A DNA stretch of 64,000 nt from Escherichia coli (GTDB lineage Bacteria > Pseudomonadota > Gammaproteobacteria > Enterobacterales > Enterobacteriaceae): the NCBI RefSeq assembly GCF_003334355.1, contig NZ_QOWP01000003.1. The stretch is one strand, 5' to 3'. The position numbers and the translations under genes were made by a program. How positions within the stretch are numbered: position 1 is the first letter of the stretch; the number at the start of each line of letters is the position of its first letter. The notes below the pieces were generated by a model. It made no database searches. It saw only the letters and a list, made by a program, of their open reading frames with translations, and was not told the origin of the DNA. Below are positions 5,234 through 51,270 of the stretch, in pieces.

Positions 5234-7212
<1,979 letters not shown>

Positions 7213-8621: not shown

Positions 8622-8697
<76 letters not shown>

Positions 8698-8854: not shown

Positions 8855-8930
<76 letters not shown>

Positions 8931-24431: not shown

Positions 24432-24479
24432 TTGGGGCCGTCCCCGGTGAAAAGACGCGTTTGCAGGTCGTCCTGCAAA
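24432..24479 (-). ncRNA. Guanidine-II riboswitch (mini-ykkC) in the gdx/sugE leader
   Basis: Minus-strand transcript has two GC-rich hairpins with ACGR tetraloops: UUUGCAGG-ACGA-CCUGCAAA (24460-24479) and GGGG-ACGG-CCCC (24434-24445), the second immediately upstream of the GGAG Shine-Dalgarno. Confidence 0.7.
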
Positions 24480-24596: not shown

Positions 24597-24743
24597 CTAT
24601 TGCTGCGCTTTCGTTGCTGCGCCAGAAATCGCGTTACCGCCATCAGAAATGTCTTCACCAACGCCACGCGTGGTGTTGCAGGCAGTTAATACTGTTGAAA
24701 GCACCAGAACAGAAAAGATCGCTGCAATTGTCTTCTTCACCAT
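24597..24743 (-). CDS. ecnB: Entericidin B lipoprotein, 48 aa (not in ORF track)
   Basis: Own translation of reverse complement: [48 protein letters not shown]; lipobox LTAC. Confidence 0.85.
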
Positions 24744-24853
24744 AACGTCTTCCTTTTAGGTAATGTTATTTATGTTTGCCTATAGCAAATTAATAATAGA
24801 CAACATCGCCAAAAATGACGGAAATCTGATGATTTTTCGGAAGAGAAGAAAAA

Positions 24854-24979
24854 TTAGCTGGCAGCGCGAGAGATGGAGTTGCCGAGATGTTTGATGTCTT
24901 CGCCGAAACCGCGAGCGGTGTTACAGCCCGTGAGCAGCGTGCTGGCAAGCAAAACAAGAACGATAAGGCGTTTCATCAT
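24854..24979 (-). CDS. ecnA: Entericidin A lipoprotein, 41 aa (not in ORF track)
   Basis: Own translation of reverse complement: [41 protein letters not shown]; lipobox LTGC. Confidence 0.85.
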
Positions 24980-38669: not shown

Positions 38670-38745
38670 GCCCGGATAGCTCAGTCGGTAGAGCAGGGGA
38701 TTGAAAATCCCCGTGTCCTTGGTTCGATTCCGAGTCCGGGCACCA
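38670..38745 (+). tRNA. pheU: tRNA-Phe (anticodon GAA)
   Basis: GCCCGGATAGCTCAGTCGGTAGAGCAGGGGATTGAAAATCCCCGTGTCCTTGGTTCGATTCCGAGTCCGGGCACCA, 76 nt with cloverleaf and CCA end. Confidence 0.95.
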
Positions 38746-39361: not shown

Positions 39362-40900
39362 ATGCAACAACCTGTAGTTCGCGTTGGCGAATGGCTTGTT
39401 ACTCCGTCCATAAACCAAATTAGCCGCAATGGGCGTCAACTTACCCTTGAGCCGAGATTAATCGATCTTCTGGTTTTCTTTGCTCAACACAGTGGCGAAG
39501 TACTTAGCAGGGATGAACTTATCGATAATGTCTGGAAGAGAAGTATTGTCACCAATCACGTTGTGACGCAGAGTATCTCAGAACTACGTAAGTCATTAAA
39601 AGATAATGATGAAGATAGTCCTGTCTATATCGCTACTGTACCAAAGCGCGGCTATAAATTAATGGTGCCGGTTATCTGGTACAGCGAAGAAGAGGGAGAG
39701 AAAATAATGCTATCTTCGCCTCCCCCTATACCAGAGGCGGTTCCTGCCACAGATTCTCCCTCCCACAGTCTTAACATTCAAAACACCGCAACGCCACCTG
39801 AACAATCCCCAGTTAAAAGCAAACGATTCACTACCTTTTGGGTATGGTTTTTTTTCCTGTTGTCGTTAGGTATCTGTGTAGCACTGGTAGCGTTTTCAAG
39901 TCTTGATACACGTCTTCCTATGAGCAAATCGCGTATTTTGCTCAATCCACGCGATATTGACATTAATATGGTAAATAAAAGTTGTAACAGCTGGAGTTCC
40001 CCGTATCAGCTCTCTTACGCGATAGGCGTGGGTGATTTGGTGGCGACATCACTTAACACCTTCTCCACCTTTATGGTGCATGACAAAATCAACTACAACA
40101 TTGATGAACCGAGCAGTTCCGGTAAAACATTATCTATTGCGTTTGTTAATCAGCGCCAATACCGTGCTCAACAATGCTTTATGTCGATAAAATTGGTAGA
40201 CAATGCAGATGGTTCAACCATGCTGGATAAACGTTATGTCATCACTAACGGTAATCAGCTGGCGATTCAAAATGATTTACTGGAGAGTTTATCAAAAGCG
40301 TTAAACCAACCGTGGCCACAACGAATGCAGGAGACGCTCCAGAAAATTTTGCCGCATCGTGGTGCGTTATTAACTAATTTTTATCAGGCACATGATTATT
40401 TACTGCATGGCGATGATAAATCATTGAACCGTGCCAGTGAATTATTAGGTGAGATTGTTCAATCATCCCCAGAATTTACCTACGCGAGAGCAGAAAAAGC
40501 ATTAGTTGATATCGTGCGCCATTCTCAACATCCTTTAGATGAAAAACAATTAGCAGCACTGAACACAGAAATAGATAACATTGTTACACTGCCGGAATTG
40601 AACAACCTGTCCATTATATATCAAATAAAAGCGGTCAGTGCTCTGGTAAAAGGTAAAACAGATGAGTCTTACCAGGCGATAAATACTGGCATTGATCTTG
40701 AAATGTCCTGGCTAAATTATGTGTTGCTTGGCAAGGTTTATGAAATGAAGGGGATGAACCGGGAAGCAGCTGATGCATATCTCACCGCCTTTAATTTACG
40801 CCCAGGGGCAAACACCCTTTACTGGATTGAAAATGGTATATTCCAGACTTCTGTTCCTTATGTTGTACCTTATCTCGACAAATTTCTTGCTTCAGAATAA
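39362..40900 (+). CDS. cadC: Membrane-integrated pH/lysine-responsive transcriptional activator CadC
   Basis: ORF track 512 aa MQQPVVRVGEWLVTPSINQISRNGRQLTLEPRLIDLLVFF (winged-helix), single TM, PPPIP motif at codons 120-124. Confidence 0.95.
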   Translation: MQQPVVRVGEWLVTPSINQISRNGRQLTLEPRLIDLLVFFAQHSGEVLSRDELIDNVWKRSIVTNHVVTQSISELRKSLKDNDEDSPVYIATVPKRGYKLMVPVIWYSEEEGEKIMLSSPPPIPEAVPATDSPSHSLNIQNTATPPEQSPVKSKRFTTFWVWFFFLLSLGICVALVAFSSLDTRLPMSKSRILLNPRDIDINMVNKSCNSWSSPYQLSYAIGVGDLVATSLNTFSTFMVHDKINYNIDEPSSSGKTLSIAFVNQRQYRAQQCFMSIKLVDNADGSTMLDKRYVITNGNQLAIQNDLLESLSKALNQPWPQRMQETLQKILPHRGALLTNFYQAHDYLLHGDDKSLNRASELLGEIVQSSPEFTYARAEKALVDIVRHSQHPLDEKQLAALNTEIDNIVTLPELNNLSIIYQIKAVSALVKGKTDESYQAINTGIDLEMSWLNYVLLGKVYEMKGMNREAADAYLTAFNLRPGANTLYWIENGIFQTSVPYVVPYLDKFLASE

Positions 40901-46578: not shown

Positions 46579-48096
46579 ATGTCTGAACAAGAAACACGGG
46601 GAGCCAATGAGGCTATTGATTTTAACGATGAACTGAGAAATCGCCGCGAAAAACTGGCGGCACTACGTCAGCAAGGTGTGGCGTTTCCCAATGATTTTCG
46701 CCGCGACCATACCTCTGACCAGTTGCACGAAGAGTTTGATGCGAAGGATAACCAGGAACTGGAATCCTTAAACATTGAAGTCTCGGTTGCTGGCCGAATG
46801 ATGACCCGTCGTATCATGGGGAAAGCCTCCTTTGTAACGTTGCAGGATGTCGGTGGCCGTATTCAACTGTACGTTGCAAGAGATAGCCTGCCAGAAGGTG
46901 TTTATAACGATCAGTTTAAAAAATGGGATCTGGGTGACATTATCGGTGCCCGCGGTACGCTGTTTAAGACGCAAACGGGTGAGCTTTCCATTCACTGTAC
47001 TGAGTTGCGCCTGCTGACAAAAGCACTACGTCCTTTACCAGATAAATTCCATGGTCTGCAGGATCAGGAAGTCCGTTATCGTCAACGTTATCTGGACCTC
47101 ATCGCTAACGATAAATCCCGTCAAACGTTTGTTGTCCGTTCAAAAATTCTGGCCGCTATCCGTCAGTTCATGGTCGCGCGCGGCTTTATGGAAGTAGAAA
47201 CCCCGATGATGCAGGTAATTCCAGGTGGGGCATCTGCTCGCCCATTTATTACCCATCATAATGCTCTGGATTTAGATATGTATCTGCGTATCGCGCCGGA
47301 GCTGTATCTGAAACGTCTGGTTGTAGGCGGTTTTGAACGGGTATTCGAAATCAACCGTAACTTCCGTAATGAAGGTATTTCTGTTCGCCATAATCCTGAG
47401 TTCACAATGATGGAACTCTACATGGCGTATGCGGATTACCACGATTTGATTGAACTGACAGAGTCACTGTTCCGCACCCTGGCACAAGAGGTTCTGGGTA
47501 CCACTAAAGTCACTTATGGCGAGCATGTGTTTGATTTCGGCAAACCGTTTGAAAAACTCACCATGCGCGAAGCAATCAAAAAATATCGTCCAGAAACCGA
47601 TATGGCCGACCTGGATAATTTTGATGCTGCTAAAGCATTAGCTGAATCTATCGGAATTACGGTAGAGAAAAGCTGGGGGCTGGGACGTATTGTCACGGAG
47701 ATCTTTGATGAAGTGGCAGAAGCACATCTGATTCAGCCAACCTTTATTACGGAATATCCGGCAGAAGTGTCCCCGCTGGCGCGCCGTAATGATGTTAACC
47801 CGGAAATCACCGACCGTTTTGAATTCTTCATCGGTGGTCGTGAAATCGGTAATGGTTTTAGCGAATTAAACGACGCAGAAGATCAGGCTGAACGTTTCCA
47901 GGAACAGGTTAACGCTAAAGCTGCAGGTGACGACGAAGCCATGTTCTATGACGAAGATTACGTGACTGCGCTGGAATATGGTCTGCCGCCAACCGCTGGT
48001 CTGGGTATTGGCATCGACCGAATGATTATGCTGTTTACAAACAGTCATACTATTCGTGACGTTATTCTCTTCCCGGCGATGCGCCCACAGAAATAA
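46579..48096 (+). CDS. lysU: Lysine--tRNA ligase, inducible form LysU, 505 aa
   Basis: ORF track 46552-48096 trimmed to [33 protein letters not shown]; assigned lysU rather than lysS by genomic context next to cadA/dtpC. Confidence 0.93.
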
Positions 48097-48114
48097 ATTT
48101 CTCTTTTCTTTAAT

Positions 48115-48144
48115 GAACGAAGCAGTCAGGCGACTGCTTCGTTC
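48115..48144. other. 13-bp-stem hairpin between convergent lysU and ghoT (no clear U tract on either strand)
   Basis: GAACGAAGCAGTC-agg-CGACTGCTTCGTTC perfect inverted repeat seen directly. Confidence 0.5.
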
Positions 48145-48219
48145 ATCGTTCCGCAAATCCAGTTTTGAGGAGAGACGCTTCGTTTCACGATAACCAGCGG
48201 GTCCACTCAACTACAGCTC

Positions 48220-48393
48220 CTAAAAGAGAGAAAAAAGTAATGCCACAGGCAGACTCATTGGCCAGGTTATTCCGACCAGGAATGCACTAAGTAAACGAAT
48301 ATGTGTTTTCTCATGTGAGATAAACCAGATAATGACAAAGGATATGTTCACACCAATCACATAAAAAATTAATATTTTAGAGAATAGTGCCAT
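48220..48393 (-). CDS. ghoT: Type V toxin-antitoxin membrane toxin GhoT (YjdO), 57 aa (not in ORF track)
   Basis: Own translation of reverse complement: MALFSKILIFYVIGVNISFVIIWFISHEKTHIRLLSAFLVGITWPMSLPVALLFSLF*; 27 nt downstream of ghoS. Confidence 0.82.
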   Translation of the reverse strand: MALFSKILIFYVIGVNISFVIIWFISHEKTHIRLLSAFLVGITWPMSLPVALLFSLF

Positions 48394-48420
48394 TTTTTAT
48401 GTTCTTCTTATCCTTCCTGG

Positions 48421-48717
48421 CTACTTGTAAAACTGACGGAAATAGTCATCAACTGTCATAATGTTGAGGTCAAAATCAATATCCGGTAAGTCTAAGCATT
48501 TAAGCCTGATTAAATCTTCGATTTCACTTGCGGCTAACGATGTCGTTATTGCGAAGGAATTTTCATTCAATTGTCGTGGTATCCCATATTCATCAGCCAC
48601 GATAGAAGAGAAATTCATATCATACATCAATGATCTTAATCTTAAGAACACTGAGGAATAAGATGATGGATAATCAAAAGAAACAATATAAGTATTGAAC
48701 TTGTTTTTACCTTCCAT
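48421..48717 (-). CDS. ghoS: Type V antitoxin GhoS (YjdK), endoribonuclease specific for ghoT mRNA
   Basis: ORF track 98 aa MEGKNKFNTYIVSFDYPSSYSSVFLRLRSLMYDMNF... Confidence 0.85.
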   Translation of the reverse strand: MEGKNKFNTYIVSFDYPSSYSSVFLRLRSLMYDMNFSSIVADEYGIPRQLNENSFAITTSLAASEIEDLIRLKCLDLPDIDFDLNIMTVDDYFRQFYK

Positions 48718-48943
48718 AATATGACTCCTATCAATATTGAACGCTCAGGGGACGCAAAACTTATTAACCCCGATTGATGATTCTCATATAGGAGATATTC
48801 TTTTTTTTGCTCAGTAAAGGGGATGACTTGGGACAAAAAAACGCGCTCTCTGCCCATTCTTTGTGCATCCCCCTACCTTTCAGATGCTCTCCTGCATCAC
48901 ACCGCGGAGAGCATGAAAAATATCGTGAATCTGTACTCTCCCA

Positions 48944-49216
48944 TCAACTGCGAATATCATCATACTCCCGCGTTTTATCAAATTCGTGTTTCGCAAATGG
49001 GCATAGTGGGATAATTTTTCGTTTTTCCCGACGCATTTTTTCCACGACTTTCGCAACCAGCTGTTTACCAATCCCTTGCCCTTTCAGGCTTTCATCGACA
49101 TCGGTATGTTCGATAATCGCTAAATTCTCTCCGGTCGGCACAAAAACAATTTCAGCGATTTGCTTGCCTTGTTCGTCATTAATGTAAAATTTATTGTGGC
49201 CTTCGCGTATTTCCAT
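48944..49216 (-). CDS. yjdJ: Small GNAT-family putative acetyltransferase YjdJ
   Basis: ORF track 90 aa [54 protein letters not shown] (acetyl-CoA binding Q/RxxGxG/A-like). Confidence 0.8.
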
Positions 49217-49227
49217 TTTACCCTCGC

Positions 49228-49458
49228 TTATTTATGACGGTATTTCAGCGCGCCGCTCGGGCACGTATCAATCACTTTAACCACAGTGACGACGTCGACT
49301 TCATCCGGCATGATCCACGGCTTTCGTTTGAGATTAAATAACTTGCCGTTGCCACGTACGCAATTGCCAGAATGCTGACATATCGCAGTGTTGAAATAGA
49401 CATCGATCTTTTCGCCGGTATAACAGCGATAACCCTCGTCCAGTAGCGCCTGATCCAT
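49228..49458 (-). CDS. yjdI: Uncharacterised Cys-rich protein YjdI
   Basis: ORF track 76 aa [41 protein letters not shown]... Confidence 0.8.
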
Positions 49459-49638
49459 GACTTTCCCTCTCTCATCAGTATGATTATCGCTATAAGCATA
49501 GCCCTGGAATCTTCATACAGCACTGGCAGTTTCCGTTGCCAGAGTCTCTTCCCCTATATAGCCAATCATTCTTACTCCCTTTGAATTACCCGCCTCATCA
49601 GAGATAATGCTTAAGAAATTTGTCACACAAGGAAGCTG

Positions 49639-51270
49639 ATGAGACATTCATTGCCCTACCGCATGTTACGCAAACGTCCGATGAAATTGAGTACCACAGT
49701 GATCTTAATGGTCAGCGCGGTACTGTTCTCGGTGCTATTGGTGGTGCATCTGATTTACTTCTCGCAAATCAGTGATATGACGCGAGACGGGCTGGCCAAC
49801 AAGGCACTGGCAGTGGCGCGTACCCTCGCCGACTCGCCGGAAATCCGTCAGGGCTTGCAGAAAAAACCGCAGGAGAGTGGAATCCAGGCCATCGCGGAAG
49901 CCGTGCGCAAACGCAACGATCTGCTGTTTATTGTCGTTACCGATATGCAAAGTCTTCGCTATTCGCATCCTGAAGCCCAGCGTATTGGTCAGCCATTTAA
50001 AGGTGATGACATCCTTAAAGCGCTGAATGGCGAAGAAAATGTCGCTATCAATCGCGGTTTTCTGGCGCAGGCTTTACGCGTATTTACCCCCATCTACGAT
50101 GAAAATCATAAACAAATTGGCGTGGTGGCGATCGGCCTTGAGTTAAGCCGCGTGACCCAACAGATCAATGACAGTCGCTGGAGCATTATCTGGTCAGTAT
50201 TATTTGGCATGCTGGTCGGACTGATTGGCACCTGCATTCTGGTTAAAGTACTGAAAAAAATCCTTTTCGGCCTGGAACCCTACGAAATCTCCACGCTGTT
50301 TGAGCAACGCCAGGCCATGTTGCAGTCTATCAAAGAAGGCGTCGTTGCCGTGGACGATCGCGGCGAGGTCACGCTGATCAACGATGCCGCACAAGAATTG
50401 CTGAATTACCGTAAGTCGCAGGACGATGAGAAACTGTCGACGCTAAGCCACTCGTGGTCACAGGTGGTAGATGTCTCGGAAGTGTTACGCGACGGTACCC
50501 CGCGCCGCGACGAAGAGATTACGATTAAAGATCGGCTATTACTGATCAACACCGTTCCGGTGCGCAGTAATGGCGTTATCATCGGTGCCATTTCAACCTT
50601 CAGGGACAAAACTGAAGTACGTAAACTGATGCAGCGACTCGACGGTCTGGTCAACTATGCTGATGCACTTCGTGAACGATCCCACGAATTTATGAATAAA
50701 TTGCATGTGATTCTCGGATTATTGCATCTGAAGAGTTATAAGCAGTTGGAAGATTACATTCTCAAAACAGCCAATAACTATCAGGAAGAGATTGGCTCTC
50801 TGCTGGGTAAGATCAAATCTCCGGTTATCGCTGGTTTTTTAATCAGCAAGATTAATCGCGCGACCGATTTAGGCCATACGCTGATTTTAAACAGTGAAAG
50901 CCAGCTGCCAGACAGCGGCAGTGAGGACCAGGTCGCGACGCTGATTACCACATTGGGAAATCTGATAGAAAACGCGCTGGAAGCATTAGGGCCGGAACCC
51001 GGTGGCGAAATTAGCGTAACATTGCACTACCGTCACGGCTGGCTGCACTGCGAAGTTAACGATGATGGACCGGGGATCGCACCCGACAAAATCGATCACA
51101 TTTTTGACAAAGGTGTCTCGACAAAAGGAAGCGAGCGAGGCGTCGGTTTAGCACTTGTCAAACAACAGGTAGAAAATCTCGGCGGCAGCATCGCCGTGGA
51201 ATCGGAACCCGGGATTTTCACACAATTTTTTGTCCAGATACCCTGGGACGGGGAGAGGTCGAACAGATGA
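49639..51270 (+). CDS. dcuS: C4-dicarboxylate sensor histidine kinase DcuS
   Basis: ORF track 543 aa; two TM helices, periplasmic PAS-like domain, C-terminal HATPase (GLALVKQQVENLGGSI). Confidence 0.95.
   Translation: MRHSLPYRMLRKRPMKLSTTVILMVSAVLFSVLLVVHLIYFSQISDMTRDGLANKALAVARTLADSPEIRQGLQKKPQESGIQAIAEAVRKRNDLLFIVVTDMQSLRYSHPEAQRIGQPFKGDDILKALNGEENVAINRGFLAQALRVFTPIYDENHKQIGVVAIGLELSRVTQQINDSRWSIIWSVLFGMLVGLIGTCILVKVLKKILFGLEPYEISTLFEQRQAMLQSIKEGVVAVDDRGEVTLINDAAQELLNYRKSQDDEKLSTLSHSWSQVVDVSEVLRDGTPRRDEEITIKDRLLLINTVPVRSNGVIIGAISTFRDKTEVRKLMQRLDGLVNYADALRERSHEFMNKLHVILGLLHLKSYKQLEDYILKTANNYQEEIGSLLGKIKSPVIAGFLISKINRATDLGHTLILNSESQLPDSGSEDQVATLITTLGNLIENALEALGPEPGGEISVTLHYRHGWLHCEVNDDGPGIAPDKIDHIFDKGVSTKGSERGVGLALVKQQVENLGGSIAVESEPGIFTQFFVQIPWDGERSNR

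What the first reader, a model, noticed from the sequence alone, without database searches (positions are those of the whole stretch)
48220..48717. ghoS-ghoT type V toxin-antitoxin pair in a low-GC pocket; ghoT is missing from the ORF track
ghoT (57 aa) falls below the ORF-track cutoff but translates cleanly 27 nt downstream of ghoS on the minus strand. The ghoS-ghoT-yjdJ-yjdI stretch is visibly AT-rich compared with the flanking lysU and dcuS, suggesting a horizontally acquired insert between two housekeeping operons. It is the only toxin-antitoxin module I can find in the window.
Basis: partly seen in the sequence, partly recalled or inferred. Interest (0 to 1): 0.4.

Follow-up and report, generated by a model that had tools for sequence, protein, structure and literature searches.

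The report
Known ghoS-ghoT toxin-antitoxin pair of E. coli
This is the already well-studied GhoS/GhoT toxin-antitoxin pair at its normal place in the E. coli chromosome. It is intact, almost identical to the laboratory strain, and ordinary apart from its AT-rich, lineage-restricted character.

Summary
On the minus strand, 48421-48717 encodes a 98-aa GhoS: Pfam PF11080 at E 2e-40, and 97/98 identical to the solved YjdK/GhoS structure 2LLZ (V11I). A 27-nt spacer separates it from 48220-48393, which encodes a 57-aa GhoT (PF10753, E 1e-25). The ghoT gene is identical to K-12 at every nucleotide.

The window is E. coli with K-12 gene order: cadCBA-dtpC-lysU / ghoT-ghoS-yjdJ-yjdI / dcuSR. About 97% of 5,426 complete E. 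coli genomes carry the pair at this site.

The low-GC pocket is real for ghoST (GC 0.34-0.35, against 0.52 for 40 long genes in the window). It is weak for yjdJ (0.42) and absent for yjdI (0.48).

ghoST alone looks like an old, lineage-restricted addition. Only 36 GhoS relatives turned up among 1.84 billion representative proteins, scattered across Enterobacterales. The yjdI-yjdJ pair is conserved in Citrobacter and Enterobacter without ghoST, so the four-gene "insert" is not supported. No mobility genes or flanking repeats were found.

The claim that this is the only toxin-antitoxin module in the window is wrong. The entericidin antidote/toxin pair ecnA/ecnB lies at 24597-24979.

Verdict: already known, low interest. 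One side observation is worth noting. GhoS-family genes recur beside lysine/ornithine decarboxylase-antiporter operons and lysU-like genes in several different arrangements.

The parts
48421..48717 (-). ghoS (yjdK): 98-aa antitoxin, a sequence-specific endoribonuclease. Differs from K-12 by V11I plus three synonymous changes.
   Evidence: ORF. Pfam PF11080 at E 2.3e-40. 97/98 identical to PDB 2LLZ. RefSeq annotates it as ghoS. Differences from K-12. R28, L25 and M31 are wild type, read from the translation; their roles are described in PMC4010927.
48220..48393 (-). ghoT (yjdO): 57-aa hydrophobic membrane toxin, identical to K-12 at every nucleotide.
   Evidence: ORF. Pfam PF10753 at E 9.8e-26. 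Same protein as WP_001173343.1 / b4559. Two hydrophobic segments, about residues 3-26 and 34-57, and no GCT triplet. F38 is present; its role is described in PMC4344625.
48394..48420 (-). 27-nt ghoS-ghoT spacer (CCAGGAAGGATAAGAAGAACATAAAAA). It is purine-rich and identical to K-12.
48718..48943 (-). 226-nt yjdJ-ghoS intergenic region, presumed to hold the ghoST promoter and leader. An AGGAG Shine-Dalgarno at 48725-48729 lies 7 nt before the ghoS ATG.
   Evidence: Sequence. Six SNPs relative to K-12. No sigma-70 consensus match lies inside this region; the nearest minus-strand match is at 48981-48953, within the 3' end of yjdJ. The promoter assignment is an inference.
48113..48146 (.). Perfect 15-bp inverted repeat with a 4-nt loop between the convergent ghoT and lysU 3' ends. 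It is probably a shared transcript-end hairpin. No U-tract follows it on either strand.
   Evidence: Inverted repeat I1. Folding of the intergenic RNA gives MFE -42.7 kcal/mol, z -3.4. The terminator scan found no canonical terminator. A 5-nt indel relative to K-12 lies next to it.
48495..48597 (-). Stretch of ghoS holding its three 5'-GCU (MqsR-type) triplets, at 48597-48595, 48505-48503 and 48497-48495. ghoT and the spacer contain none.
   Evidence: The significance comes from the literature (PMC4905990; PMC4344625). By composition alone, ghoT would lack GCT in about 9% of shuffles.
48944..49458 (-). yjdJ (48944-49216, GNAT acetyltransferase) and yjdI (49228-49458, 4Fe-4S mono-cluster protein). 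These are context genes and not part of the toxin-antitoxin module or of its insert.
   Evidence: The pair is conserved in Citrobacter and Enterobacter without ghoST. Composition.

Best explanation
The locus is the chromosomal ghoS-ghoT operon of E. coli, the founding type V toxin-antitoxin system, at its usual position between yjdJ and lysU and apparently intact. The mechanism is taken from published work on K-12, whose ghoT gene is identical and whose GhoS differs by V11I. The two genes lie in the order antitoxin then toxin; that they are co-transcribed is recalled from the primary paper, which could not be opened here. GhoT is a 57-aa two-helix inner-membrane peptide that damages the membrane, lowers ATP and produces 'ghost' cells. 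GhoS is a stable Cas2-like endoribonuclease, with R28 its most important catalytic residue. It neutralises the toxin by cleaving ghoT mRNA, not by binding it. Under stress, the type II toxin MqsR, which cuts at GCU, degrades the ghoS part of the message. The ghoT part has no GCU and is spared, so GhoT is made and growth slows. In evolutionary terms, the two-gene module is an AT-rich, lineage-restricted addition. It was fixed at this site early in the E. coli lineage and is not a recent mobile insert. Shown here: gene identity, intactness, the asymmetric GCU distribution, composition and distribution. Inferred from the literature: all biochemical steps.
For: ORFs and spacer. Pfam GhoS at E 2e-40 and GhoT_OrtT at E 1e-25. 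97/98 identity to the solved GhoS structure 2LLZ. Zero differences from K-12 in ghoT and the spacer; one conservative change in ghoS, V11I, which is also the residue in most family members. RefSeq and K-12 annotation of the same DNA as ghoS/ghoT. Residues R28, L25 and M31 of GhoS and F38 of GhoT are retained (translations; roles). There are three GCU triplets in ghoS and none in ghoT, matching the published MqsR cascade. GhoT has two hydrophobic segments. The module is present in 5,273-5,322 of 5,426 complete E. coli genomes and is syntenic in E. whittamii and two unnamed Escherichia species. Low GC and GC3. The GhoS family is very small and patchy.
Against: Nothing contradicts the identification. 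Several caveats apply. NCBIfam and PADLOC have no model that matches either protein. No promoter or canonical terminator was found by consensus scans within the ghoST intergenic regions. The absence of GCU from a 174-nt AT-rich gene would occur by chance in about 9% of shuffles. The primary papers (PMC3514572, PMC3620836) could not be opened, so the mechanism rests on secondary citations. Whether mqsRA is present in this strain cannot be seen from the window, and some E. coli lack it (PMC7232551).
Confidence: 0.95

Rival explanations
1. One reading: the whole ghoS-ghoT-yjdJ-yjdI stretch is one horizontally acquired block inserted between lysU and dcuS.
For: All four genes lie on the same strand between lysU and dcuS. 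yjdJ is mildly AT-rich: GC 0.42, in the lowest 2.7% of length-matched segments. The interval is variable in E. coli. About 14% of complete genomes match less than 80% of the block, and in the one such genome examined an autotransporter gene abuts a truncated yjdI. Some strains have lost parts of the interval next to IS1.
Against: yjdI has normal GC (0.48) and GC3 (0.57). YjdJ homologues at 78-88% identity occur in Citrobacter, Enterobacter, Kosakonia, Klebsiella and Buttiauxella. In Citrobacter and Enterobacter the yjdI-yjdJ pair is intact in other chromosomal contexts with no ghoST beside it. GhoS, in contrast, has almost no relatives. No flanking repeats or mobility genes were found.
Confidence: 0.07
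2. The low GC of ghoST reflects functional constraint and not foreign origin. On this view the gene composition follows from an Ile/Phe/Leu/Asn/Lys-rich small protein and an A/U-rich mRNA that must be cleaved by GhoS.
For: GhoT is extremely hydrophobic. In six of seven other hosts examined, the GhoS or GhoST genes are 6-13 GC points below their 7-12 kb surroundings, in loci ranging from 0.43 to 0.57 GC. Codon-usage distance from the window's genes is only borderline (Karlin B in the top 5-8% of length-matched segments).
Against: GC3, which is largely free of protein constraint, is also very low: 0.36 against 0.57. One orphan GhoS homologue has near-host GC, 0.536 against 0.552, so the fold does not demand AT-richness. 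The patchy distribution and island-borne copies independently point to horizontal movement.
Confidence: 0.25
3. The locus in this strain is an inactive remnant, with either the toxin or the antitoxin non-functional.
For: None directly. Truncated and fused variants do exist elsewhere (P0003, P0016, P0029 and P0042).
Against: Both reading frames are full length. ghoT and the spacer are identical to K-12, and ghoS carries only V11I and keeps R28.
Confidence: 0.02

Closest known systems
GhoS/GhoT (YjdK/YjdO) type V toxin-antitoxin system of E. coli K-12 (Wang et al. 2012, Nat Chem Biol 8:855; GhoS NMR structure PDB 2LLZ)
   Same: It is the same locus. The neighbours are the same (yjdJ upstream, lysU convergent downstream). 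The GhoT protein and gene are identical, as is the 27-nt spacer. GhoS is 97/98 identical, and the GCU asymmetry is the same.
   Different: GhoS carries V11I and three synonymous changes. There are six SNPs in the upstream intergenic region and a 5-nt indel beside the downstream hairpin. None of these is expected to change function.
OrtT (YdcX), orphan GhoT-like toxin of E. coli
   Same: It belongs to the same Pfam family (PF10753) and is the same size (57 aa). It is 63% identical to GhoT, is a two-helix membrane toxin, and keeps the conserved F38 (PMC4344625; plasmid-collection hits).
   Different: OrtT has no antitoxin and is not neutralised by GhoS. It carries two GCU sites and sits at a different locus, yncL-ortT. 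The gene in this window is GhoT, not OrtT.
Cas2 (CRISPR-associated endoribonuclease fold)
   Same: GhoS is described as a structural homologue of Cas2 with conserved catalytic residues (PMC4010927).
   Different: No sequence-level match to Cas2 was seen in the PDB search. There is no CRISPR context here. The fold comparison was not re-run.
Entericidin ecnA/ecnB antidote/toxin lipoprotein pair, in the same window at 24597-24979
   Same: It is a chromosomal two-gene pair encoding a small membrane-active toxin and its antidote, and K-12 annotates it that way.
   Different: The proteins are unrelated and both are lipoproteins. The antidote is not an RNase, and the composition is normal. It is not usually counted among TA types I-VIII (general knowledge).

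Membership tests
GhoS antitoxin (Pfam PF11080) | Significant full-length match to the family profile | tested here: met
   PF11080 at E 2.3e-40, residues 7-94 matching model positions 6-93 of 94.
GhoS antitoxin (Pfam PF11080) | Orthology to the experimentally characterised protein (YjdK/GhoS, PDB 2LLZ) | tested here: met
   97/98 identical, E 1e-61. Same locus as K-12 b4128.
GhoS antitoxin (Pfam PF11080) | Catalytic R28 retained, and absence of the L25I/M31L changes that convert GhoS into a toxin | tested here: met
   The translation reads ...F24 L25 R26 L27 R28 S29 L30 M31.... The roles of these residues are given in PMC4010927.
GhoS antitoxin (Pfam PF11080) | Endoribonuclease activity specific for ghoT mRNA | not testable with these tools
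   Inferred from near-identity to the characterised protein. It would need an in vitro cleavage assay.
GhoT/OrtT toxin (Pfam PF10753) | Significant match to the family profile, and identity to K-12 GhoT as opposed to OrtT | tested here: met
   PF10753 at E 9.8e-26. 57/57 identical to K-12 b4559, with 0/174 nucleotide differences. OrtT is only 63% identical.
GhoT/OrtT toxin (Pfam PF10753) | Small protein with two hydrophobic transmembrane segments and the conserved F38 | tested here: met
   In 15-residue windows, Kyte-Doolittle means are 1.7-2.6 for windows lying within residues 1-27 and 1.1-1.7 for windows within 31-57, with a polar HEKTH turn between them. F38 is present (role).
Type V toxin-antitoxin system | Adjacent same-strand genes, antitoxin first, separated by a short spacer | tested here: met
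   ghoS at 48717-48421, a 27-nt spacer, then ghoT at 48393-48220, all on the minus strand. Co-transcription itself was not tested.
Type V toxin-antitoxin system | Differential MqsR (GCU) sensitivity: sites in ghoS and none in ghoT | tested here: met
   Three GCT triplets in ghoS and none in ghoT or the spacer. The chance probability of none in ghoT is about 0.09, so this is consistent with the model but not proof.
   Met for ghoS and ghoT: GC 0.34-0.35 and GC3 0.36 against 0.52 and 0.57. Weak for yjdJ and not met for yjdI.
   GhoS has 36 hits among 1.84e9 representative proteins, named only from Escherichia, some Salmonella, Pluralibacter and Serratia fonticola. YjdJ is widespread. The status in E. 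albertii and E. fergusonii was not resolved. The species-representative scan returned only four Escherichia loci and one contaminant, and it did not obviously return the E. coli type genome, so its negatives are weak.
   No such ORFs lie between lysU and dcuS. Only two 12-nt chance repeats were found. The nearest tRNA in the window is at 38670-38742, which corresponds to pheU in K-12.

The most novel reading that the evidence does not exclude
The chromosomal neighbourhood of GhoS-family genes may not be accidental. In five different arrangements, a GhoS or GhoST module sits directly beside an inducible amino-acid decarboxylase/antiporter operon (cadBA-like or speF-potE), a lysU-like lysyl-tRNA synthetase gene, or both. 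The arrangements seen were: (1) E. coli, cadCBA-dtpC-lysU / ghoT-ghoS; (2) an Escherichia accessory locus, speF-potE-ghoS-ghoT-rarD; (3) Pluralibacter, speF-potE-ghoT-ghoS-rarD; (4) Salmonella, cadC-lysU-ghoT-ghoS; (5) Salmonella, cadBA-ghoS-lysU. Gene order varies, and some GhoS genes have no GhoT partner. This could mean that GhoS/GhoT are functionally tied to the acid-stress/polyamine response, or that GhoS has RNA targets in those operons. Under that reading, the toxin-antitoxin relationship would be only one use of the family.
Probability: 0.2. Interest if true: 0.45.

Novelty: already known. Interest (0 to 1): 0.1.

Why it matters
For this window it matters little. The useful corrections are these:
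- The AT-rich, lineage-restricted unit is the two-gene ghoST module, not the four-gene stretch.
- It is an old, fixed component of the E. coli chromosome, present in about 97% of complete genomes and lost secondarily next to IS1 in the two genomes examined.
- The window holds a second toxin/antidote pair, ecnAB.

If the side observation holds up, it would give a concrete physiological context for a toxin-antitoxin system whose natural role is still debated. That observation is that GhoS-family genes are repeatedly linked to cad/speF decarboxylase-antiporter operons and lysU, with toxin-first and orphan-GhoS variants. One paper reports ghoT induction at acid pH (PMC7232551).

Tried and rejected
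- **NCBIfam and PADLOC scans of GhoS and GhoT.** No family matched. This is uninformative, because those libraries lack matching models, and it is not evidence against the identification.
- **Primary papers.** PMC3514572, PMID 22941047 and PMC3620836 could not be opened. The mechanism is cited from PMC4344625, PMC4010927, PMC4905990 and PMC5086665.
- **Consensus promoter/terminator scan.** It found no canonical terminator and no promoter in the ghoS upstream intergenic region.
- **Scan of species-representative genomes with the 15-sequence GhoS alignment.** The 7-sequence version returned only 5 loci, too few to infer absence in E. albertii, E. fergusonii or Salmonella representatives.
- **Using strain OW1E2 to annotate the whole window.** OW1E2 is 100% identical over 48100-49650, but this failed because it carries a pheU island and a disrupted cadC, so it is not collinear with the window. 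K-12 was used instead.
- **'Plasmid' hits for ghoST.** Three of the nine records are 4.8-4.9 Mb and so are evidently mislabelled chromosomes. Five more are 0.37-1.0 Mb and one is 94 kb, and all nine are typed non-mobilizable. They were rejected as evidence of plasmid carriage.
- **P0055 and P0070.** These are long repeat proteins matching GhoS in 5-6 stretches. By inspection they are compositional matches of Ig-like repeats, and they were rejected as homologues.
- **The paper found with the search terms ghoS, lysU and cadA.** It matched the author name 'Ghosh'.
- **Naming E. albertii or E. fergusonii YjdJ proteins.** The attempt, meant to allow inspection of their loci, gave no such names.

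Full report
**What is there.** On the minus strand, a 98-codon ORF (48421-48717) is followed after 27 nt by a 57-codon ORF (48220-48393). The first ORF matches Pfam GhoS (PF11080) at E 2.3e-40. It is 97/98 identical to the only solved structure of the family, PDB 2LLZ 'YjdK'. The second ORF matches Pfam Toxin_GhoT_OrtT (PF10753) at E 9.8e-26. The window is E. coli. The 1.55-kb block 48100-49650 is 100% identical to strain OW1E2 and 97-99% identical to thousands of other genomes, all annotated ghoT, ghoS, yjdJ, yjdI, dcuS.

Gene order matches K-12 MG1655 read in reverse: cadC-cadB-cadA-dtpC-lysU, then ghoT-ghoS-yjdJ-yjdI on the other strand, then dcuS-dcuR. Compared with K-12, ghoT and the spacer have no nucleotide difference. 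ghoS has one conservative replacement (V11I) and three synonymous changes. The upstream intergenic region has six SNPs, and there is a 5-nt indel beside the downstream hairpin. Isoleucine at position 11 is the commoner residue across family members.

**Anatomy.** ghoS has an AGGAG Shine-Dalgarno 7 nt upstream of its ATG (48725-48729). GhoT has two hydrophobic stretches separated by a polar HEKTH turn. A perfect 15-bp inverted repeat (48113-48146) lies between the convergent 3' ends of ghoT and lysU. It folds strongly, but no U-tract follows it, and the consensus scan reports no canonical terminator. ghoS contains three GCT triplets, whereas ghoT and the spacer contain none. This is the published basis for selective survival of the ghoT message when MqsR is active. 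By composition alone, ghoT would lack GCT in about 9% of shuffles.

The residues reported as functionally important are all in their wild-type state. These are R28 of GhoS; L25 and M31 of GhoS, whose mutation turns it into a toxin; and F38 of GhoT.

**How it works.** The mechanism is taken from work on K-12 and was not shown here. The antitoxin gene lies first, and the two genes are reported to be co-transcribed; that point comes from my recollection of the primary paper, which I could not open. GhoT is a membrane-damaging peptide that lowers ATP and gives 'ghost' cells. GhoS is a stable, Cas2-like endoribonuclease that neutralises the toxin by cleaving its mRNA, not by binding the protein or repressing the promoter. 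MqsR degrades the ghoS portion of the transcript during stress and so releases GhoT (PMC4344625, PMC4010927, PMC4905990, PMC5086665). The two primary papers could not be opened.

**Composition.** GC is 0.351 for ghoT and 0.337 for ghoS, against 0.519 ± 0.033 for 40 long genes of the window. None of 5,000 length-matched segments of long genes was as low. GC3 is 0.35-0.36 against 0.57, which falls in the lowest 0.6-1.6%. Karlin codon-bias distance is only borderline, in the top 5-8%. yjdJ is mildly low (GC 0.42) and yjdI is normal (GC 0.48, GC3 0.57). In 100-nt windows the pocket runs from about 48250 to 48850. It has the lowest 500-nt GC in the window (0.334). Five other places also drop to 0.38 or below, near yjeJ, around cadC, between dcuR and dcuB, and near 63 kb.

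**Distribution within E. coli.** A 561-nt query covering only ghoST matches 5,322 of 5,426 complete E. coli genomes, and 5,273 of them match over at least 80% of its length. In the two genomes examined that lack ghoST, the loss is secondary. In one, IS1 abuts dcuS and the whole cad-lysU-ghoST-yjdJI segment is gone. In the other, IS1 sits between pheU and yjdJ. About 14% of genomes match less than 80% of the 1.55-kb block. In the one example examined, an autotransporter gene abuts a truncated yjdI. The hits in 'plasmid' records are 0.09-4.9 Mb and all typed non-mobilizable; three exceed 4.8 Mb and are evidently mislabelled chromosomes.

**Distribution outside E. coli.** GhoS is a remarkably small family. 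There are 47 hits among 5.8 billion clustered proteins and 36 among 1.84 billion representatives read exhaustively by HMMER. Two of those 36 are spurious repeat proteins. Named members come from Escherichia, from two unrelated lineages in Salmonella enterica, from Pluralibacter gergoviae and from Serratia fonticola.

The scan of species-representative genomes returned syntenic copies in E. whittamii, in two unnamed Escherichia species and in one E. coli-labelled genome, plus a 306-bp contaminant contig. Because so few loci came back, I do not treat its negatives as proof of absence in E. albertii or E. fergusonii.

YjdJ, in contrast, is widespread at 78-88% identity in Citrobacter, Enterobacter, Kosakonia and Klebsiella. 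In Citrobacter and Enterobacter, yjdI-yjdJ is an intact pair in other contexts with no ghoST beside it. No integrase, tRNA, IS or meaningful direct repeat borders the module in the window.

Together these results support ghoST alone as an old, now fixed, lineage-restricted addition. They do not support a four-gene insert or a recent one. Functional constraint may contribute to the AT-richness, because homologues are 6-13 GC points below their surroundings in six other loci. One orphan homologue, however, has near-host GC, and GC3 is low as well, so constraint is unlikely to be the whole story.

**The 'only TA module' remark.** The window also carries ecnA (24854-24979) and ecnB (24597-24743) on the minus strand. 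K-12 annotates them as 'entericidin A lipoprotein, antidote to entericidin B' and 'bacteriolytic entericidin B lipoprotein'. This is a toxin/antidote pair, although it is not usually placed in TA types I-VIII (general knowledge).

**Side observations from related loci.** GhoS-family genes recur next to amino-acid decarboxylase/antiporter operons and lysU-like genes:
- The E. coli core locus lies three genes from cadBA (the window).
- A rare second copy, present in about 33 complete E. coli genomes, lies directly after speF-potE. In the one strain examined (QA-1986 630) that speF-potE-ghoS-ghoT-rarD block sits among IS elements beside a potE fragment.
- Pluralibacter has speF-potE-ghoT-ghoS-rarD, with the toxin first.
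- One Salmonella lineage has a cadC-like gene (46% identical), a cadA remnant and a lysU-like gene, then ghoT-ghoS with the toxin first. Invasin-domain and CaiF/GrlA-family genes and an integrase follow.
- Another Salmonella lineage has cadB-cadA-ghoS-lysU with no detectable GhoT.
- Serratia fonticola and an unnamed enterobacterial contig have orphan GhoS genes.
- A 135-aa ORF that fuses the C-terminal part of GhoS to GhoT recurs in metagenomes.

One paper reports ghoT induction at acid pH (PMC7232551). I could not decide whether the linkage reflects function or the hitchhiking of one ancestral block. It is recorded as the most novel reading that the evidence does not exclude.

**Verdict.** This is a correct re-identification of a known, well-characterised locus, so the novelty is 'already known' and the interest is low. 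The gene calls are right. The horizontal-acquisition idea is plausible for ghoST but not for yjdJ-yjdI. The uniqueness claim is wrong.

Noticed in passing
window 24597-24979 (-): ecnB (24597-24743, 48 aa) and ecnA (24854-24979, 41 aa) form the entericidin toxin/antidote lipoprotein pair.
   Followed up: partly
window 24433-24479 (-): A guanidine-II (mini-ykkC) riboswitch hit (49.3 bits) lies upstream of the gdx/sugE gene. Three tRNAs were also found, at 8625-8697, 8858-8930 and 38670-38742; the last corresponds to pheU in K-12.
   Followed up: no
L005 6001-6497; L015 2893-3346; L029 4805-5300; L017 5789-6288; L025 5001-5273; L034 7263-7767: GhoS-family genes recur directly beside cadBA-like or speF-potE decarboxylase/antiporter operons, lysU-like genes, or both. 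This was seen in five different arrangements across Escherichia, Salmonella and Pluralibacter.
   Followed up: partly
L017 5789-6288 (Salmonella enterica); L029 4805-5300 (Pluralibacter gergoviae): In these relatives the gene order is toxin first (ghoT then ghoS, with 22-29 nt between them), the opposite of E. coli. In Salmonella the pair follows a lysU-like gene on the same strand, and an integrase gene lies about 5 kb further on in the same locus.
   Followed up: partly
L025 5001-5273; L027 5001-5300; L035 5001-5291: These are orphan GhoS homologues (28-34% identity) with no GhoT-like sequence within 5 kb by tblastn. They occur in Salmonella, Serratia fonticola and an unnamed enterobacterial contig. 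This suggests that GhoS can have a role other than neutralising GhoT.
   Followed up: partly
L007 1050-1457; L008 455-862; L009 980-1387: A 135-aa ORF (P0042, a cluster of 91 member sequences) joins the C-terminal two-thirds of a GhoS-like protein to a GhoT-like peptide in one reading frame. It occurs in metagenome contigs next to an EamA transporter gene.
   Followed up: no
L004 5122-9161; window 49228-49640: About 14% of complete E. coli genomes match less than 80% of the ghoT-dcuS block. In the one example examined, yjdI is truncated and a large autotransporter gene sits where the yjdI-dcuS intergenic region is in the window.
   Followed up: partly
L002 5250-5947; L003 4248-4945; L022 5491-7294: The cad-lysU-ghoST segment is lost in some strains. 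In two of them IS1 sits at the deletion edge. In a third, an Eco29kI-type restriction-modification pair lies between yjdJ and dsbD.
   Followed up: partly
L014 1-306: A 306-bp contig in a 'Bacillus sanguinis' assembly is 100% identical at the protein level to E. coli ghoS/ghoT. It is almost certainly contamination of that assembly.
   Followed up: no
window 39362-40900 and 46579-48096: cadC (GC 0.419, GC3 0.39) and lysU (GC3 0.45) are themselves below the window average. The whole cad-lysU-ghoST side is therefore compositionally lighter than the dcuS side.
   Followed up: no
window 48102-48111: There is a 5-nt insertion (AAAGA on the minus strand) and one SNP relative to K-12, immediately next to the 15-bp hairpin between ghoT and lysU.
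   Followed up: no
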